Below are positions 12,081 to 32,092 of a stretch of 40,589 bases of DNA, in pieces. Below the pieces are notes generated by a model. That model did not search any database. It worked only from the letters and a program-made list of their open reading frames with translations, and was not told the origin of the DNA. The position numbers and the translations under genes were made by a program. The stretch comes from a virus. Every line of letters begins with the position of its first letter. The stretch's first letter is position 1. Location: UHGV virus genome UHGV-0397188; one strand, written 5' to 3'.

Positions 12081-13556
12081 TTACGGCATGTGGTAGTAGT
12101 ATACTTTAAGTTCGTCTTCTTCTCGATCATAGACAATTTTCTCCACAACGCTTCTAAGCACCTCATTCTTGGTCGTCGCATCTACGGAATCGGATGAGAG
12201 AATATCGTACACATTTTTTACTCTCATCAACATATCATTGTCCTCATTTTTGGTGCTTATTTTCTCTTCTTTAAGCTCAGACAGTTGTTTTTCTAGACTG
12301 TCTTTCTCTCCCTGCACAATCCGTTTATTTTCCTTGTATTCTTCCATAGTATCAATTCCATTCATGTATGCCTCTTTGATTCTCTGCAGCTTCACGTCGA
12401 TTTTCTTTATCTGATCTTCCAGTATGGTTTTCAAGTCCGCAGTATCTTCCGTTTTAGCCTCAATCTTCCGGTAGGTTATTTTTCCAGTATCCAATACAGA
12501 CTTAATTGATTCCAATACCGCAGGCTCAAGCTTTAGAGAGCTTATGGAGTTCTTCGCCGCACATTTTCCCTTGGAGTATCCGTAACAGCGAAAATAGCAG
12601 TATGTCTGCTTATTGTTTTCAATCTTACAGGCAGTCATCGTCCTTCCACACGCTGGGCATTTAACGATCCCAGATAGCCAGTGCTTGTACGTGCTTGCCG
12701 GTCTCGCTCCACGTGGGCGGTATTCTCTCTTGTATCGCTCCTGTGCCTTATCAAACAATTCCTTACTAATGATTGCAGGTTGTTCTCCCTCAGCGATAAT
12801 CCACTCGCTTTCTGGCCGGATCTCTTTCGATTCATTAATCGTCCGATTCCACCGCACCATCCCGCAGTAAGTGGGGTTCTGTAGGATATATTCGATAGAC
12901 CTTCGTTCAAATTCTTTTCCGCGGGACGTTTTAAAGTTGCGACTATTCAAAAGCCGTGCGATTTCAAATAGTCCCATGTTGCTGTGCACATACTTTTCAA
13001 AAATCAGCTTCACAACTTCCGCTTCTTCTGGAACAATGACTGGCGGTTCTTTATGTGATACAATCTTGTACCCAAGTGGTGGGCGTGCTTGGTATCCACC
13101 TCGTTCCGCTTTTTCTCGCATTCCTCTTGTTACTTCTCCGGATAGACGGACAGAGTAATATTCATCCATCCACTCAATAATTCGTTCGATCAGAGAGCCG
13201 AATGGACCATCTACCAGTGGTTCAGAGATGCTTATTACGTCCACGTTATGCTTTTTCTTGAGCAAGGACTTGTATACAATACTTTCCTCTTGGTTTCGTG
13301 CAAATCGGCTGAATTTCCATACCAGTATGGCATCTGCCGGATGATCGGATGATTTCGCAAGACCAATCATTTTTTGGAACTCTGGGCGTTTATCCGCTTT
13401 TCTTCCGGATATTCCGAGTTCAAAAAAGATTTTCGATACTACATATCCGTGACTTTTCGCGTAATCTTTCAATAGCTTCGCTTGAGAATCCGGGGATAAT
13501 TCATCCTGTTTTCCTGTGGATACACGTACATATCCAAAGGCATATTTTGTTTCCAT
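12081..13556 (-). CDS. large serine recombinase (phage integrase)
   Basis: An N-terminal resolvase catalytic motif 'YVRVSTGKQ', a recombinase domain, a zinc-ribbon (CPACG...CYFRC...C) and a C-terminal coiled coil; AAGGAG RBS. Confidence 0.9.
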   Translation of the reverse strand: METKYAFGYVRVSTGKQDELSPDSQAKLLKDYAKSHGYVVSKIFFELGISGRKADKRPEFQKMIGLAKSSDHPADAILVWKFSRFARNQEESIVYKSLLKKKHNVDVISISEPLVDGPFGSLIERIIEWMDEYYSVRLSGEVTRGMREKAERGGYQARPPLGYKIVSHKEPPVIVPEEAEVVKLIFEKYVHSNMGLFEIARLLNSRNFKTSRGKEFERRSIEYILQNPTYCGMVRWNRTINESKEIRPESEWIIAEGEQPAIISKELFDKAQERYKREYRPRGARPASTYKHWLSGIVKCPACGRTMTACKIENNKQTYCYFRCYGYSKGKCAAKNSISSLKLEPAVLESIKSVLDTGKITYRKIEAKTEDTADLKTILEDQIKKIDVKLQRIKEAYMNGIDTMEEYKENKRIVQGEKDSLEKQLSELKEEKISTKNEDNDMLMRVKNVYDILSSDSVDATTKNEVLRSVVEKIVYDREEDELKVYYYHMP

Positions 13557-13921
13557 GCTATCATCTCCTTATTTAATTTTATGCAAAAATGAGTATAAAA
13601 ATAACAGCCAACGTGCGAACTGATGTTCCACTTGCATGACTGCTCCGAAGATGATACAATATTCTTGGATTTCAATCGCATATCTTCGGATATGTAGACC
13701 GCCTCAGTGTTGGTTGCACTGGGGCGGTTTTTATTAGCATAAACAAAATCGCTAATAACGTAAAAGACCCCGTATTGCTACGAGGTCTTCACATAATAAA
13801 CTGATATCTTCTTTTATGCCCCTAGGGCGATATTAGAAAAGAATACTCTCTTCTGTCAGTTCATTATAGAATATATTATGTCCGTAGTCAATAAAAATAT
13901 TACAGATCCCATAAAAACTGT

Positions 13922-14803
13922 TTAAAAAATATACAAATCTTTAATTTTTTGATTGATTTTTTCCATATTTTCTTCTGATAAAGACACTCCTGAAAGGACA
14001 CCTCTTATGTTGCGTGGGTCAAAGATTCGCATTTTACTAATAGTAGTAATTTGATTAACAAGCGCAATACTACCTTCTTTCATTCGTGATATTTCAAGTC
14101 CAATTTTATCCAGATATTCTTGTTGGGCTTTATTATGTGTTTTCTTATCTTGCCACAGTTGCTCTAATTTCCTGGTGGCATCTAAATATTTTTCTGCTTT
14201 TTGAAGTTCGTCTTGGCAGGCATCTTTATCATCGCTTTGTTTATATTTTTCAAGCGATTCACCCGCTAAATCGACAAGAACAGTAAAAGCTTTTTGTGCA
14301 GATAGTATTTCTTCTTGCTCGTCTTTTAATGCTTTTGAGATAGTATCATATTTGATTTTTAGTGAACGATATATTTCATTCCCTAAATCAACACTATTTG
14401 CATGAATTTCTTTATTATCTTTTTGGGAAGTAAGAGGAATAACAGTAACGACTGGAGAGTTATGCGCATTTTTATTGTCTAAGACAATACCATAATGCAA
14501 CCCTCCGTACTCATTACCTATGTTAAATCCGAAGTTTAATTTTACAATATTCCCACGTTTGTATGCTATGTTTCTAGTTGGTTCAAAGCTTTCTTCAAAG
14601 CCAATCATTCGAACATAGTCTTTGAGCCAATATGAAATTAAGTGAGCCTTTTTTAAATGTTGTTCGGATGAATCATTTATAAGACATTCAAGAAGATTAT
14701 TCAATGAACGAATAGCAGATTTTTTATTTTGTACAACATCTTCTTTTGCAAATTCTTTTGACAATGTAATTTTCCTCTCTTTCCTCTTTCCGTATTTTAA
14801 CAT
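13922..14803 (-). CDS. MazF/PemK-fold domain protein with N- and C-terminal extensions (293 aa; long coiled-coil C-terminal region)
   Basis: Residues about 80-165 ('KRGNIVKLNFGFNIGNEYGGLHYGIVL...VVTVIPLTSQ...SVDLGNEI') match the MazF/Kid/NdoA core pattern RGd[IV]...G.Eq.G.RP.lV......vVvPiTS. AT-rich. No clear RBS at the annotated ATG, so the start is uncertain. Confidence 0.55.
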   Translation of the reverse strand: MLKYGKRKERKITLSKEFAKEDVVQNKKSAIRSLNNLLECLINDSSEQHLKKAHLISYWLKDYVRMIGFEESFEPTRNIAYKRGNIVKLNFGFNIGNEYGGLHYGIVLDNKNAHNSPVVTVIPLTSQKDNKEIHANSVDLGNEIYRSLKIKYDTISKALKDEQEEILSAQKAFTVLVDLAGESLEKYKQSDDKDACQDELQKAEKYLDATRKLEQLWQDKKTHNKAQQEYLDKIGLEISRMKEGSIALVNQITTISKMRIFDPRNIRGVLSGVSLSEENMEKINQKIKDLYIF

Positions 14804-14880: not shown

Positions 14881-14909
14881 CATTGCAAAATAATAAAATA
14901 TCTATATAA
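14881..14909 (+). promoter_or_regulatory. putative sigma70-type promoter (attgca ... 17 nt ... tataat) for the membrane-protein gene
   Basis: TATAAT at 14904..14909 and a TTGCAA-like -35 element; an RBS and ATG follow at 14933. Confidence 0.3.
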
Positions 14910-14932
14910 TGAAAATACAAGGTGGTGTAGTT

Positions 14933-15346
14933 ATGAAAAAATTAAAAAGTAAAATAAAATATCATTCAGCTATAATTTTCCCAATATTTTGCTTTATATC
15001 ACTGTCAGTGATAGATAACAAGTATGGGTTACTTTCGAAAGTGCCAGAAAAGAAAATGGATGCGTTGATAGGGATTATAATATCTATAATAGGAATATTC
15101 TTAACGGTACTTACGATTTATCTATCATTTCCTAAAAACGATACTGTAAAACAAAGAATGAAAAATACAGGACATAATCATATTTTGTTAAGCAATATCT
15201 GTGTAGGGATCATGATTTTAAGTGTTGCTTTGCTGATTTGGTTGTTTACAAATTGTTATTCTATTGTTATTTGCCTGTTTTGTGCAGGCTTAGTGAATAT
15301 GCTTATTACGGGTTACTATATTTTAGTGCTTAGTGATTTTTCCTAA
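14933..15346 (+). CDS. small integral membrane protein (about 4 TM helices)
   Basis: ATG with a GGTGGTG RBS; hydrophobic segments; its 3' end overlaps the convergent gene 15323..16201. Confidence 0.5.
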   Translation: MKKLKSKIKYHSAIIFPIFCFISLSVIDNKYGLLSKVPEKKMDALIGIIISIIGIFLTVLTIYLSFPKNDTVKQRMKNTGHNHILLSNICVGIMILSVALLIWLFTNCYSIVICLFCAGLVNMLITGYYILVLSDFS

Positions 15347-16201
15347 ATGAAGATTTAAAAATTCCTCTAATTTATTTTTAATATAGTTGATATTTGTAGC
15401 GGTATCATCGGTCAATGCCAATGGTACTGTTTTTGTATACACAGATTCAATGAAATTTATAGTTTCATCGACTCCTAATTCATTTTTTCCATATAATTTT
15501 AATAATGGAATATCTTCCCGTGTGAAATTATTTTTTATTGATATTATCCTGTCTATCAAACGTGGATTATGTTTTTCTTCTAACTTGATTTTTATTTTAA
15601 ATTTTTTTGCTTGAAAATCAGAACCTAGTGATTCTTTTAAAGTTGGAATATCATCCATGCAGTTCGGCTTAGCAAATTCCATTTCAATCCAAGATGGATT
15701 TAGAATAGAGCTGGCTTCTCGTCTGATATCTTTTATCATTTCTGGGAAAATGCGTATTTTGGACATATTTCCAGATTCTTCCCAAATAAATTGACGTAAG
15801 GCCTCATGAATTTTTGATATTTTTTTGTTCGCAATTACTGCCATTCGATTATGGACGAAATCTATATAAAAAAAGGTATATGCTTCTAATTGCTCCCCAC
15901 TTTCGACAGTAGTGTATGGAACAGCTTCTTTAGTCAGCTTATTTCTTTTCTGTACAAAACTTGTCGCTCTTATAGTTTCATCGGTAGAGCAAGTTCCAAA
16001 CATTTTTTTATCGTCATACTCTTTTATGTCAAAAAATAATTTCTTTTTTTCAAATTCCATATCATAAAAATCTATTTGCGGAAAAGCAGATTTAAAAATG
16101 GCATATGTTGCTAAATTAAGATTATCTGAATTTAAGCCATTTACAGACCAACAAGGTTCTGGTTCTAAAACATAAAATTTTATCATCTTATGTACAGTCA
16201 T
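15323..16201 (-). CDS. hypothetical 292-aa protein (AT-rich accessory gene; candidate Abi or superinfection-exclusion protein)
   Basis: ATG at 16201 preceded by an AGGAG RBS (the ORF track's GTG at 16225 is inside the terminator). No recognisable domain. It lies directly downstream of the repressor-ImmA operon terminator. Confidence 0.55.
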   Translation of the reverse strand: MTVHKMIKFYVLEPEPCWSVNGLNSDNLNLATYAIFKSAFPQIDFYDMEFEKKKLFFDIKEYDDKKMFGTCSTDETIRATSFVQKRNKLTKEAVPYTTVESGEQLEAYTFFYIDFVHNRMAVIANKKISKIHEALRQFIWEESGNMSKIRIFPEMIKDIRREASSILNPSWIEMEFAKPNCMDDIPTLKESLGSDFQAKKFKIKIKLEEKHNPRLIDRIISIKNNFTREDIPLLKLYGKNELGVDETINFIESVYTKTVPLALTDDTATNINYIKNKLEEFLNLHLGKITKH

Positions 16202-16216
16202 AAAAACATCTCCTAT

Positions 16217-16248
16217 AAAAAACACCAGTTCGATAAAAGGTGTTTTTT
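16217..16248 (-). terminator. rho-independent terminator of the repressor-ImmA transcript (perfect 10-bp stem)
   Basis: aaaaaacacc / ggtgtttttt; on the minus strand the stem is followed by TTTTTTAT. Confidence 0.55.
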
Positions 16249-16258
16249 TATATAGGAA

Positions 16259-16699
16259 TTACACTATGCTTTTAAATTCCATAATCTTTTCATCATATCC
16301 AGCCAGTCTTGCAATCTGACTTTTCGTCATCCCTGGATTTTCATAGATTATGGAATCTGGTATCAGAAGTTCTGCGGCGAATGTGTTGGCTTCGTTTTCT
16401 TCTTTGAGCTTAGAAAATAATGTGCTTCCGTAGAAATAGCAATCATTTTTTCTGTGTAATTGAGAATGTCCCAATTCGTGACTCAAAATAAATTTCTCCA
16501 TGGGAGTTCCTATTATTTTTTGGTTAAGCATAATGCATTTTTGTCTTTTAATAAGTAAGTAGCAACCTAATACATCACCGATATCACATATTTGATAAAT
16601 TGTATTTGTGTAATCACATAATTCATATGGATTTCTTGTGCCGTATTTACTTGTTAAATTATCCACTATTGTTTTTACATCTTGCTTCAAGGTAATCAC
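16259..16699 (-). CDS. ImmA/IrrE-family metallopeptidase (anti-repressor protease)
   Basis: HELGHSQLH (HExxHxxxH) motif; starts with a GTG immediately after the repressor stop; classical ImmR-ImmA pair. Confidence 0.75.
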   Translation of the reverse strand: MITLKQDVKTIVDNLTSKYGTRNPYELCDYTNTIYQICDIGDVLGCYLLIKRQKCIMLNQKIIGTPMEKFILSHELGHSQLHRKNDCYFYGSTLFSKLKEENEANTFAAELLIPDSIIYENPGMTKSQIARLAGYDEKIMEFKSIV

Positions 16700-17116
16700 C
16701 TACTTTTTATTTTTGTTCGGATTAAACTTGACCTTGTTGATTTCCTTAACAGTAGTTACCAATGACTTTAATTGCTGTTCGAATAAAATTTTTGTTTCTG
16801 GGCTCATTTCAGTACCGTCGAAAAACAGTGGTGCCCCATCTTTTGCTTCTAATTTTTCCATTAAGTCATTTACTGTCTTGGAAATGTCACGCTCATCTCT
16901 CGTTGTCAATGATGCTGCATTATTCTGATGTTCCTCATAGAAATATGTTAATGGTACATCGAAGTAATCAGCTATCTTAGTAAGCTTCTCATCTTTTGGT
17001 TTACTTCGCCCATTCTTCCAATCAGAAAAAGTAGACTTAGTTATACCAGTAGCTTTCGCAACGTCCGCATCTTTACATCCTTTTTCATCTCTTAACTTGC
17101 AATAAATTTCATACAT
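16700..17116 (-). CDS. XRE-family HTH repressor (CI/ImmR-like)
   Basis: The N-terminal HTH 'TGITKSTFSDWKNGRSKPK' is paralogous to the Cro-like gene 17313..17498. The probable start is the second ATG, which has a GAGGTG RBS. It is divergent from cro. Confidence 0.75.
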   Translation of the reverse strand: MYEIYCKLRDEKGCKDADVAKATGITKSTFSDWKNGRSKPKDEKLTKIADYFDVPLTYFYEEHQNNAASLTTRDERDISKTVNDLMEKLEAKDGAPLFFDGTEMSPETKILFEQQLKSLVTTVKEINKVKFNPNKNKK

Positions 17117-17134
17117 AATACACCTCATAAAAAA

Positions 17135-32019: not shown

Positions 32020-32092
32020 GGGTGTATAGCTCAATTGGTAGAGCAATCGGCTGTTAACCGATGTGTCGTAGGTTCGAGTCCTGCTATACCCG
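32020..32092 (+). tRNA. tRNA-Asn (anticodon GUU)
   Basis: Manual fold: acceptor GGGTGTA/TATACCC, D-arm GCTC-AATTGGTA-GAGC, anticodon stem ATCGG/CCGAT with loop CTGTTAA, T-arm GTAGG-TTCGAGT-CCTGC, discriminator G; 73 nt; no encoded CCA. Confidence 0.8.

What the first reader, a model, noticed from the sequence alone, without database searches (positions are those of the whole stretch)
13922..14803. A solitary MazF/PemK endoribonuclease-fold domain inside a 293-aa protein, with no adjacent antitoxin
Residues about 80-165 reproduce the Kid/MazF/NdoA core (KRGNIV..F....GNEYGG...GIVL...VVTVIPLTS...SVDLGNEI). Canonical toxins of this family are about 110 aa and are always preceded by a small MazE/PemI antitoxin gene. 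Here the fold is flanked by an N-terminal extension of about 80 aa and a predicted coiled-coil C-terminal region of about 125 aa. No small upstream ORF exists on the same strand. A fused or self-contained MazF-like module of this kind could act as an abortive-infection effector. Alternatively, one of the extensions could serve as a cis antitoxin.
Basis: partly seen in the sequence, partly recalled or inferred. Interest (0 to 1): 0.7.

Follow-up and report, generated by a model that had tools for sequence, protein, structure and literature searches.

The report
Phage MazF-like RNase with partner RNA

Summary

No protein antitoxin exists in the window or recurs across 79 related loci. However, 72 of 79 loci (91%) have a near-consensus promoter within 80 nt (mostly 30 nt) after the stop codon, and 71 of 79 add a terminator, typically giving a transcript of about 95 nt. 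Only 1.2% of other genes in the same loci have both. In 49 of 72 RNAs there is a shared core: a 4-bp GC hairpin, exactly 8 nt, then AGA(C/U)A. It is in no Rfam family and shows no complementarity to the toxin mRNA.

The best reading is a type III-like toxin plus RNA-antitoxin (abortive infection) module built on a MazF-family toxin with inverted gene order. Function is untested.

The parts
13922..14764 (-). Long MazF/PemK-family protein gene, probable 280-aa product starting at TTG 14764. The mechanical ORF extends to ATG 14803 (293 aa).
   Evidence: ORF; RBS GAGAGGAAAA upstream of TTG; homologues ~280 aa; Pfam PF02452 49 bits; phrog_1412 E 2.6e-47 over residues 31-292.
14579..14764 (-). N-terminal helical hairpin (residues 1-62 of the 280-aa form; helices 7-30 and 34-59) with near-invariant W46, E57, F60.
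   Evidence: AF2 secondary structure; conservation; retained in Streptococcus and Staphylococcus phage relatives.
14378..14578 (-). First part of the MazF barrel (residues 63-129): G-x-E85-x-G-G-L-H90-Y loop and P110-L-T112-S113 motif.
   Evidence: hhalign to E. coli MazF: E85=E24, H90=R29, T112=T52; invariants; His in 60 of 67 and Arg in 7 of 67 at position 90.
14084..14377 (-). Antiparallel helical hairpin (residues 130-227; helices 130-175 and 180-227) inserted into the MazF fold. It is the most variable region.
   Evidence: AF2; entropy 3.1 bits against 1.6 for the core, length 50-109 aa; 56% identity where the core is 83-84%.
13925..14083 (-). Last part of the MazF fold (residues 228-280): strands 232-249 (GSIALVNQITTISKMRIF) and terminal helix 264-279.
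13863..13891 (-). Near-consensus sigma-70 promoter TTGACT-N17-TATAAT of the small RNA, starting 30 nt after the stop codon.
   Evidence: 11 of 12 consensus matches; invariant in alignments; an equivalent promoter is present in 72 of 79 loci.
13762..13856 (-). Predicted ~95-nt small RNA. 5' hairpin P1 (13835-13854); core hairpin GCCC-uag-GGGC (13818-13828); 8-nt spacer AUAAAAGA (13810-13817); AGAUA (13805-13809); intrinsic terminator (13763-13790) plus U-run.
   Evidence: MFE -30.4 kcal/mol, z -4.61. P1 sequences differ between loci while each still folds into a 5' hairpin, and the terminator has compensatory pairs. The core occurs in 49 of 72 RNAs against 0.5 in shuffles and once in the whole window. 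No Rfam family matches.
13557..13761 (-). Separate conserved non-coding element (part B) between the RNA and the integrase start. It tracks integrase genes and is not part of the MazF/RNA module.
   Evidence: Present upstream of tyrosine and serine integrases with or without the long MazF.

Best explanation
The gene and the ~95-nt RNA gene just downstream form one two-part module carried in the lysogeny region of a temperate phage. The protein is a MazF-family endoribonuclease enlarged by an N-terminal helical hairpin and a long helical hairpin inserted into the barrel. The RNA is made in excess from its own strong promoter, and it probably also forms the 3' end of the toxin mRNA, because no terminator separates them. 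The RNA presents a small GC hairpin followed, at a fixed 8-nt distance, by a single-stranded AGA(C/U)A that resembles a MazF substrate (ACA).

I propose that the RNA binds the protein directly, with the single strand lying in the active-site groove and the hairpin docked on the protein, and so acts as an RNA antitoxin in the manner of type III toxin-antitoxin systems. When an infecting phage shuts off host transcription or the RNA otherwise decays, the RNase is freed, cuts cellular and phage RNA, and aborts the infection.

Shown here: the fold, the conserved active-site region, the lack of a protein partner, the family-wide linkage to the RNA, the conserved RNA core, and the absence of antisense complementarity. 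Inferred: RNA-protein binding, toxicity, neutralisation, the trigger, and any role of the helical additions.

For: No protein antitoxin: no recurrent small ORF in 79 loci; none in the window; no MazE/Kis-like ORF among 399 window ORFs.

RNA linkage: promoter after the stop codon in 72 of 79 loci and promoter plus terminator in 71 of 79, against 7.2% and 1.2% for 415 other genes. It persists in proteins down to 34% identity, and in Streptococcus and Staphylococcus phages. Conservation stops exactly at the terminator when no integrase follows. RNA-first scans give a long MazF upstream in 32 of 46 and 8 of 8 contigs, at constant spacing.

RNA core: hairpin + 8 nt + AGA[CU] in 49 of 72 RNAs against 0.5 +/- 0.6 in shuffles; sharp spacing peak at 8; the innermost pair covaries; AAGAC enriched, 40 observed against 5.9 expected. 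Some versions carry duplicated hairpin units (L105, phage 92).

Not antisense: cognate and non-cognate duplex energies are equal.

Precedent: type III toxins share the MazF/Kid fold and act in abortive infection (PMC5086642).
Against: No experiment shows that the RNA is transcribed, binds the protein or neutralises it. Gene order and promoter layout are the reverse of every described type III system, and the window's RNA is not a tandem repeat array. The RNA occurs without a long MazF in several phage lineages: phiRg519T2-like phages with a DUF4429-SHOCT gene, L142 and L128. About a third of the RNAs (the AGAAUAC classes) lack the GCC-hairpin/AGAC core. The protein is not notably basic, so no RNA-binding surface is evident. 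Linkage alone would also fit an RNA that is the enzyme's substrate or a co-regulated phage sRNA. A named Rfam family, 'pemK RNA' (RF02913), exists. It does not match these RNAs, but I could not read its description.
Confidence: 0.5

Rival explanations
1. Dedicated RNA-protein pair that is not a toxin-antitoxin system. The long MazF is a specific processing or binding factor for this sRNA (or the reverse), and together they regulate phage lysogeny functions such as integrase expression or host genes.
For: The same linkage data apply. The position is constant, at the repressor-integrase end of the lysogeny module. The RNA persists in phages that have replaced the MazF gene, as expected if the RNA has a function of its own. 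The catalytic Arg is replaced by His in most members.
Against: The whole MazF active-site region is invariant or near-invariant, and His and Arg interchange at the catalytic position. That pattern fits a working nuclease of the toxin family. The module also occurs next to ordinary host genes with no integrase.
Confidence: 0.2
2. One reading: a self-contained, single-chain toxin in which the N-terminal hairpin or the inserted coiled coil acts as a cis antitoxin or sensor (as in CapRel-SJ46, EzeT or HepS), and the downstream RNA is incidental.
For: Both helical additions are universal in the family. The insertion evolves fastest, as sensor domains do. Solo toxin-domain defence proteins on prophages exist: HepS (PMC13043305); CapRel and EzeT as summarised in PMC10865869.
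Against: It does not explain a promoter-RNA-terminator unit in about 90% of loci with a conserved sequence core. The additions have no homology to any antitoxin. The two ideas are not mutually exclusive, since the helical parts could bind the RNA or sense phage proteins.
Confidence: 0.12
3. The RNA unit is only a transcriptional punctuation element or leader, that is, a strong promoter plus attenuator for downstream genes such as the integrase, or an antisense (type I-like) regulator of the MazF mRNA.
For: In the window and many loci an integrase follows, with a further conserved leader. The terminator module is re-used in other contexts (L104, L118, L132, L138).
Against: The unit is kept, with sharp boundaries, where host genes follow and no integrase is present. 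A conserved hairpin-N8-AGACA core is unnecessary for punctuation. There is no cognate complementarity to the MazF mRNA.
Confidence: 0.08

Closest known systems
Type II MazEF / PemIK (Kid-Kis) toxin-antitoxin toxins
   Different: 280 aa instead of ~110. It has an N-terminal helical hairpin and a 50-109-aa helical hairpin inserted in the barrel. The catalytic Arg is replaced by His in most members. There is no MazE/PemI-type gene, and a small RNA gene sits alongside instead.
Type III toxin-antitoxin systems (ToxIN, AbiQ, CptIN, TenpIN)
   Same: An endoribonuclease toxin with a MazF/Kid-like core next to a small structured RNA gene bounded by an intrinsic terminator. They occur on mobile elements, and an abortive-infection role is known for ToxIN and AbiQ. 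Possible parallel to pseudo-ToxI: orphan RNA copies in other phages.
   Different: The toxin belongs to the PemK family, not ToxN/CptN/TenpN. The RNA lies downstream of the toxin with its own strong promoter, instead of upstream in one operon. It is usually one or two hairpin units, not an array of 34-45-nt tandem repeats. Processing and closed RNA-protein assemblies are unknown here.
Single-chain or solo toxin-domain phage defences (CapRel-SJ46, EzeT, HepS)
   Same: A toxin-type catalytic domain with extra, fast-evolving domains; prophage-encoded; no protein antitoxin.
   Different: Those proteins are self-regulated, whereas this family has a conserved RNA partner. The catalytic domains also differ (toxSAS, zeta kinase, HEPN).
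Rfam RF02913 'pemK RNA' motif
   Same: By its name, a structured RNA associated with pemK genes. I recall it as coming from Firmicutes, but that is unverified.
   Different: Its covariance model does not match the window or any of 16 diverse related loci, at gathering score or at E <= 10. Its description and genomic contexts could not be read here.

Membership tests
Type II MazF/PemK toxin | PemK/MazF (SH3-like barrel) fold and sequence family | tested here: met
Type II MazF/PemK toxin | Catalytic Arg (E. coli R29) and Thr (T52) | tested here: inconclusive
   The Thr is kept: T112, T/S in 69 of 81 sequences, with S113 invariant. The Arg is replaced by His90 in the window and in 80 of 81 or 60 of 67 sequences, and one clade keeps Arg. 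Mapping by hhalign.
Type II MazF/PemK toxin | Small (~110 aa) single-domain protein | tested here: not met
   280 aa with two helical additions.
Type II MazF/PemK toxin | Cognate protein antitoxin gene (MazE/PemI) adjacent in an operon | tested here: not met
   No recurrent small ORF in 79 loci; none in the window; no MazE/Kis similarity in any window ORF (low sensitivity).
Type II MazF/PemK toxin | Sequence-specific endoribonuclease activity and growth inhibition | not testable with these tools
   Needs expression and cleavage assays.
Type III toxin-antitoxin system | Endoribonuclease toxin with a MazF/Kid-like core fold | tested here: met
   fold relationship of ToxN to Kid/MazF from PMC5086642.
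Type III toxin-antitoxin system | Toxin belongs to the ToxN/AbiQ, CptN or TenpN sequence families | tested here: not met
   Only PemK_toxin is hit in Pfam, and there is no PADLOC hit.
Type III toxin-antitoxin system | Adjacent non-coding RNA gene | tested here: met
   A promoter-RNA-terminator unit in 71 of 79 loci against 1.2% of other genes; conserved core.
Type III toxin-antitoxin system | Antitoxin is a tandem array of direct repeats | tested here: not met
   The window RNA has one core unit plus an unrelated 5' hairpin. Two repeated units occur only in some relatives (L105, L081, phage 92).
Type III toxin-antitoxin system | Order promoter - antitoxin repeats - terminator - toxin in one operon | tested here: not met
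   The RNA lies downstream of the toxin with its own promoter. Definition from PMC5086642.
Type III toxin-antitoxin system | RNA binds and inhibits the toxin and is processed by it | not testable with these tools
   Needs biochemistry or protein-RNA complex prediction.
Fused / solo toxin defence proteins (CapRel-like, HepS-like) | Self-contained: no partner gene needed | tested here: not met
   Conserved RNA partner.
Fused / solo toxin defence proteins (CapRel-like, HepS-like) | Cis domain autoinhibits the toxin and senses a phage protein | not testable with these tools
The only supporting data are that the insertion is the fastest-evolving region.
Rfam RF02913 pemK RNA | Match to the family covariance model | tested here: not met
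   No hit at gathering score in the window or in 16 loci. No hit at E <= 10 in three RNA classes.

The most novel reading that the evidence does not exclude
This is the first MazF/PemK-family toxin controlled by an RNA antitoxin. It would be a fourth, architecturally inverted family of type III-like toxin-antitoxin / abortive-infection modules, widespread in temperate phages of Firmicutes, including gut Lachnospiraceae, Streptococcus and Staphylococcus aureus phages. The RNA would act as a hairpin-anchored pseudo-substrate, and orphan copies of the RNA in other phages would serve as anti-defence decoys.
Probability: 0.4. Interest if true: 0.85.

Novelty: new variant of a known kind. Interest (0 to 1): 0.75.

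Why it matters
MazF is the textbook type II toxin, defined by its protein antitoxin MazE. A large phage-borne branch of the family that has dropped the protein antitoxin and is instead tied to a conserved small RNA would blur the type II / type III boundary. It would show how one RNase fold can switch between protein and RNA control. It would also add a common, currently unrecognised candidate defence module: PADLOC gives no hit, PHROGs labels the family an "antitoxin", and NCBI labels it a type II toxin. The module sits in prophages of gut commensals and of S. aureus and streptococcal pathogens. The conserved RNA core (hairpin, 8 nt, AGACA) makes the idea directly testable with simple genetics and binding assays.

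Tried and rejected
1. Whole 365-nt gap as a MazF-specific RNA. Rejected. The 3' half (part B) follows integrase genes of both types and occurs without the long MazF. Only the 5' ~130 nt (promoter plus RNA) goes with the MazF gene.
2. I first concluded from phiRg519T2 that the whole gap was an integrase leader. That was overturned by loci without integrase that keep the RNA with sharp boundaries.
3. Protein antitoxin. Clustering all ORFs of at least 35 aa within 700 nt in 79 loci gave only XRE repressors (28 loci) and integrases. The small antisense ORF clusters lie in conserved DNA and were judged spurious. A phmmer search with MazE/Kis sequences against all window ORFs found nothing.
4. Antisense (type I-like) control. 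No cognate advantage in duplex energy (the first attempt, timed out).
5. Known RNA families. Rfam at gathering score and at E <= 10 found nothing relevant.
6. RNAalifold on a MAFFT alignment missed hairpin P1 through misalignment. P1 was assessed per sequence instead.
7. Protein positions tracking RNA class. Only residue 84 (Ser/Asn, next to E85) stood out, phylogeny confounds the comparison, and I did not rely on it.
Contacts of the N-terminal hairpin and the dimer interface therefore could not be examined.
9. Literature. Nine searches found no functional study of this long form or of a MazF-RNA pairing. The supplement of Weinberg 2017 was not held.

Full report
**Setting.** The window looks like a temperate phage genome. 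It has tail and lysis genes, a serine integrase (12081-13556, -), an XRE repressor and an ImmA/IrrE peptidase (16259-17128, -), a divergent Cro-like gene, and replication and packaging genes. The finding's ORF (13922-14803, -) lies between ImmA and the integrase, on the repressor's strand, in a low-GC stretch (0.31 against about 0.42).

**The observation.** The ORF is real. Pfam PemK_toxin scores 49.2 bits against a 23.1-bit cut-off, but in two stretches. PHROGs family 1412 covers residues 31-292 at E 2.6e-47 and is labelled, oddly, "antitoxin mazE-like". PADLOC has no hit. Homologues are numerous: 1,164 hits in the 90%-identity cluster database, and 1,054 clusters at 50% identity with E <= 1e-3. 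They are typically 240-290 aa, and NCBI names some of them "type II toxin-antitoxin system PemK/MazF family toxin". Most are about 280 aa. In the window a TTG at 14764 preceded by GAGAGGAAAA gives exactly that length.

**Anatomy.** An 81-sequence alignment gave an AlphaFold2 model with pLDDT 94.9 and pTM 0.84. In 280-aa numbering (add 13 for the 293-aa ORF) the layout is:
- helices 7-30 and 34-59;
- strands 72-128;
- two long antiparallel helices, 130-175 and 180-227;
- strands 232-249;
- helix 264-279.

The fold is therefore complete, and the "coiled coil" is an insertion within it, not a C-terminal extension. Conservation follows this layout. Entropy is 1.6 bits in both core halves, 2.3 in the N-terminal hairpin and 3.1 in the insertion, whose length ranges from 50 to 109 aa. 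Among relatives at 60-85% overall identity, the core is 83-84% identical and the insertion 56%. Shorter relatives in Streptococcus and Staphylococcus phages keep the same three-part design.

**Active site.** E85 (= E. coli E24), P110, L111, S113 and K244 are invariant. Q238 and R246 are near-invariant. T112 (= the catalytic T52) is Thr or Ser in 69 of 81 sequences. The catalytic Arg (R29) is His90 in the window and in most members, but one clade has GSEQGGLRY, the canonical MazF motif. His and Arg interchanging at this one site within an invariant loop argues for a working catalytic centre. Activity itself is untested.

**No protein antitoxin.** Homologue neighbourhoods show the gene immediately upstream of an integrase of either the tyrosine or the serine type, and downstream of repressor/ImmA genes, with variable genes between. 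In other loci it is the last gene of an element and lies next to host genes. Clustering every ORF of at least 35 aa within 700 nt in 79 species-representative loci found no recurrent small partner. It found only XRE repressors (28 loci) and integrases. The window has no plausible small ORF beside the gene, and no ORF anywhere resembles MazE or Kis.

**The partner RNA.** The 365-nt gap before the integrase is more conserved than the protein (82% DNA identity against about 70% protein identity) and holds an invariant TTGACT-N17-TATAAT promoter. I first attributed the whole gap to the integrase, because its 3' half recurs upstream of integrases in phages that lack the gene. A motif survey then split the gap in two.

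The 5' part is a sharply bounded unit that follows the long MazF gene whatever lies beyond it, and similarity stops exactly at the terminator. A motif-independent test confirmed this:
- In 72 of 79 loci (proteins 34-70% identical to the window's) a promoter with at most one mismatch per hexamer starts 0-80 nt after the stop codon, mostly within 30 nt.
- In 71 of 79 a hairpin plus T-run follows, at about 90-110 nt from the -10 box in most; nine loci gave 30-50 nt. The median RNA length is 93 nt.
- Among 415 other genes in the same loci, 7.2% have such a promoter and 1.2% have both.

Terminator stems and 5' hairpins differ completely between clades, so the unit is old and is not recently shared DNA. 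Streptococcus phage Javan166 and Staphylococcus phage 92 have it too, and in phage 92 it consists of two near-identical hairpin repeats.

Searching viral contigs by RNA signature alone gave two estimates. With the terminator signature, a long MazF lay directly upstream on the same strand in 32 of 46 contigs. With the variant-2 core, it did so in 8 of 8. The exceptions are a few phage lineages in which another gene (DUF4429-SHOCT, a DnaQ-like exonuclease) or ImmA precedes the RNA.

**RNA features.** The window RNA (13762-13856, -) folds into a 5' hairpin, a small GC hairpin and a terminator. Its MFE is -30.4 kcal/mol with z = -4.6. Across classes there is a shared core: a 4-bp GCCN/NGGC hairpin, exactly 8 A/U-rich nucleotides, then AGA(C/U)A. 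It is present in 49 of 72 RNAs, against 0.5 +/- 0.6 in dinucleotide shuffles. The spacing peaks at 8 (49 RNAs, against 11 each at 7 and 9), and the innermost pair covaries. AAGAC is enriched, 40 observed against 5.9 expected. The strict core pattern occurs once in the 40.6-kb window, at 13806-13828. The commonest form, AGACA, contains ACA, which from general knowledge is the classic MazF site.

The RNA shows no better pairing with its own toxin mRNA than with unrelated ones, so an antisense mechanism is unsupported. No Rfam family matches. An Rfam family called pemK RNA (RF02913) does exist but does not hit these RNAs, and I could not read its description.

**Interpretation.** The data fit a two-part module, a MazF-family RNase plus a dedicated small RNA. 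It most resembles type III toxin-antitoxin systems, whose toxins share the MazF/Kid fold, whose antitoxins are structured RNAs ending at a terminator, and which act in abortive infection (PMC5086642). It fails several defining features of type III: the toxin sequence family, the tandem repeat array, and the gene order with a single promoter. I therefore describe it as working like, but not belonging to, the known type III families.

Its place on the repressor strand of the lysogeny module fits expression in lysogens and a role in excluding other phages. Orphan RNA copies in other phages could be decoys analogous to pseudo-ToxI. Solo RNase defences such as HepS (PMC13043305), and fused toxins such as CapRel-SJ46 and EzeT (as summarised in PMC10865869), show that the helical additions might also sense phage proteins.

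None of the functional steps has been shown. The main rival is a non-toxic RNA-protein pair with a regulatory role.

**Verdict.** The fold observation is confirmed and the domain layout corrected. "Solitary" is wrong in an interesting way. I found no functional study of the protein family, though it is already annotated by domain, and the RNA partner and its conserved core match no Rfam family and appeared in none of my nine literature searches.

Noticed in passing
window 13557-13761 (- strand), also L001, L007, L013, L014: A conserved ~200-nt non-coding element directly upstream of integrase genes of both tyrosine and serine type, in Lachnospiraceae phages including R. gnavus phiRg519T2 and Roseburia phage Jekyll. 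It has invariant blocks TTGTATCATCTTCGG, GCAAGCGGAAC and GGCTGTTATTTTTATAC. On the opposite strand there is a possible promoter (TTGCAT-N17-TACAAT) and terminator, which would give a convergent small transcript. No Rfam family matches.
   Followed up: partly
L015 3840-3926 (- strand), Streptococcus phage Javan166: The known S. pyogenes sRNA Spy779816 (Rfam RF02589, 76 bits) lies on the opposite strand between the MazF-associated RNA and the integrase. This is the same relative position as the window's part B element.
   Followed up: no
L013 (phiRg519T2), L098, L099, L103, L109, L111, L124, L142, L128: Orphan copies of the MazF-associated RNA in phages that lack the long MazF gene. They lie downstream of a DUF4429-SHOCT gene, a DnaQ-like exonuclease gene, or directly after ImmA. 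They could be remnants or anti-defence decoys.
   Followed up: partly
window 14883-15346 (+ strand): A divergently transcribed gene for a ~137-aa multi-pass membrane protein. The likely start is ATG 14933 with RBS AAGGTGG, and the promoter is TTGCAA-N16-TATAAT at 14883-14910. There are only faint hits (PADLOC PDC-M67B E 0.0036; SLATT-like). It is not conserved next to the long MazF in other loci.
   Followed up: partly
window 15323-16225 (- strand): A 300-aa ORF between ImmA and the long MazF with no Pfam, NCBIfam or PADLOC hit. The same slot holds unrelated genes of 194-470 aa in related phages, so it looks like a variable cargo slot. The whole 14-17 kb stretch has low GC (0.31).
   Followed up: partly
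PHROGs family phrog_1412: The family that covers this architecture is labelled 'antitoxin mazE-like', although the fold is the toxin (MazF). RefSeq phage records have inherited the label.
   Followed up: yes
window 32020-32092 (+ strand): A tRNA gene (Rfam 69.9 bits) just upstream of the packaging genes.
   Followed up: no
L035-L040, L050 (long MazF homologues): One clade of the family has Arg instead of His at the catalytic position (GSEQGGLRYAI), identical in pattern to canonical MazF. It offers a natural comparison for testing the role of His90.
   Followed up: partly
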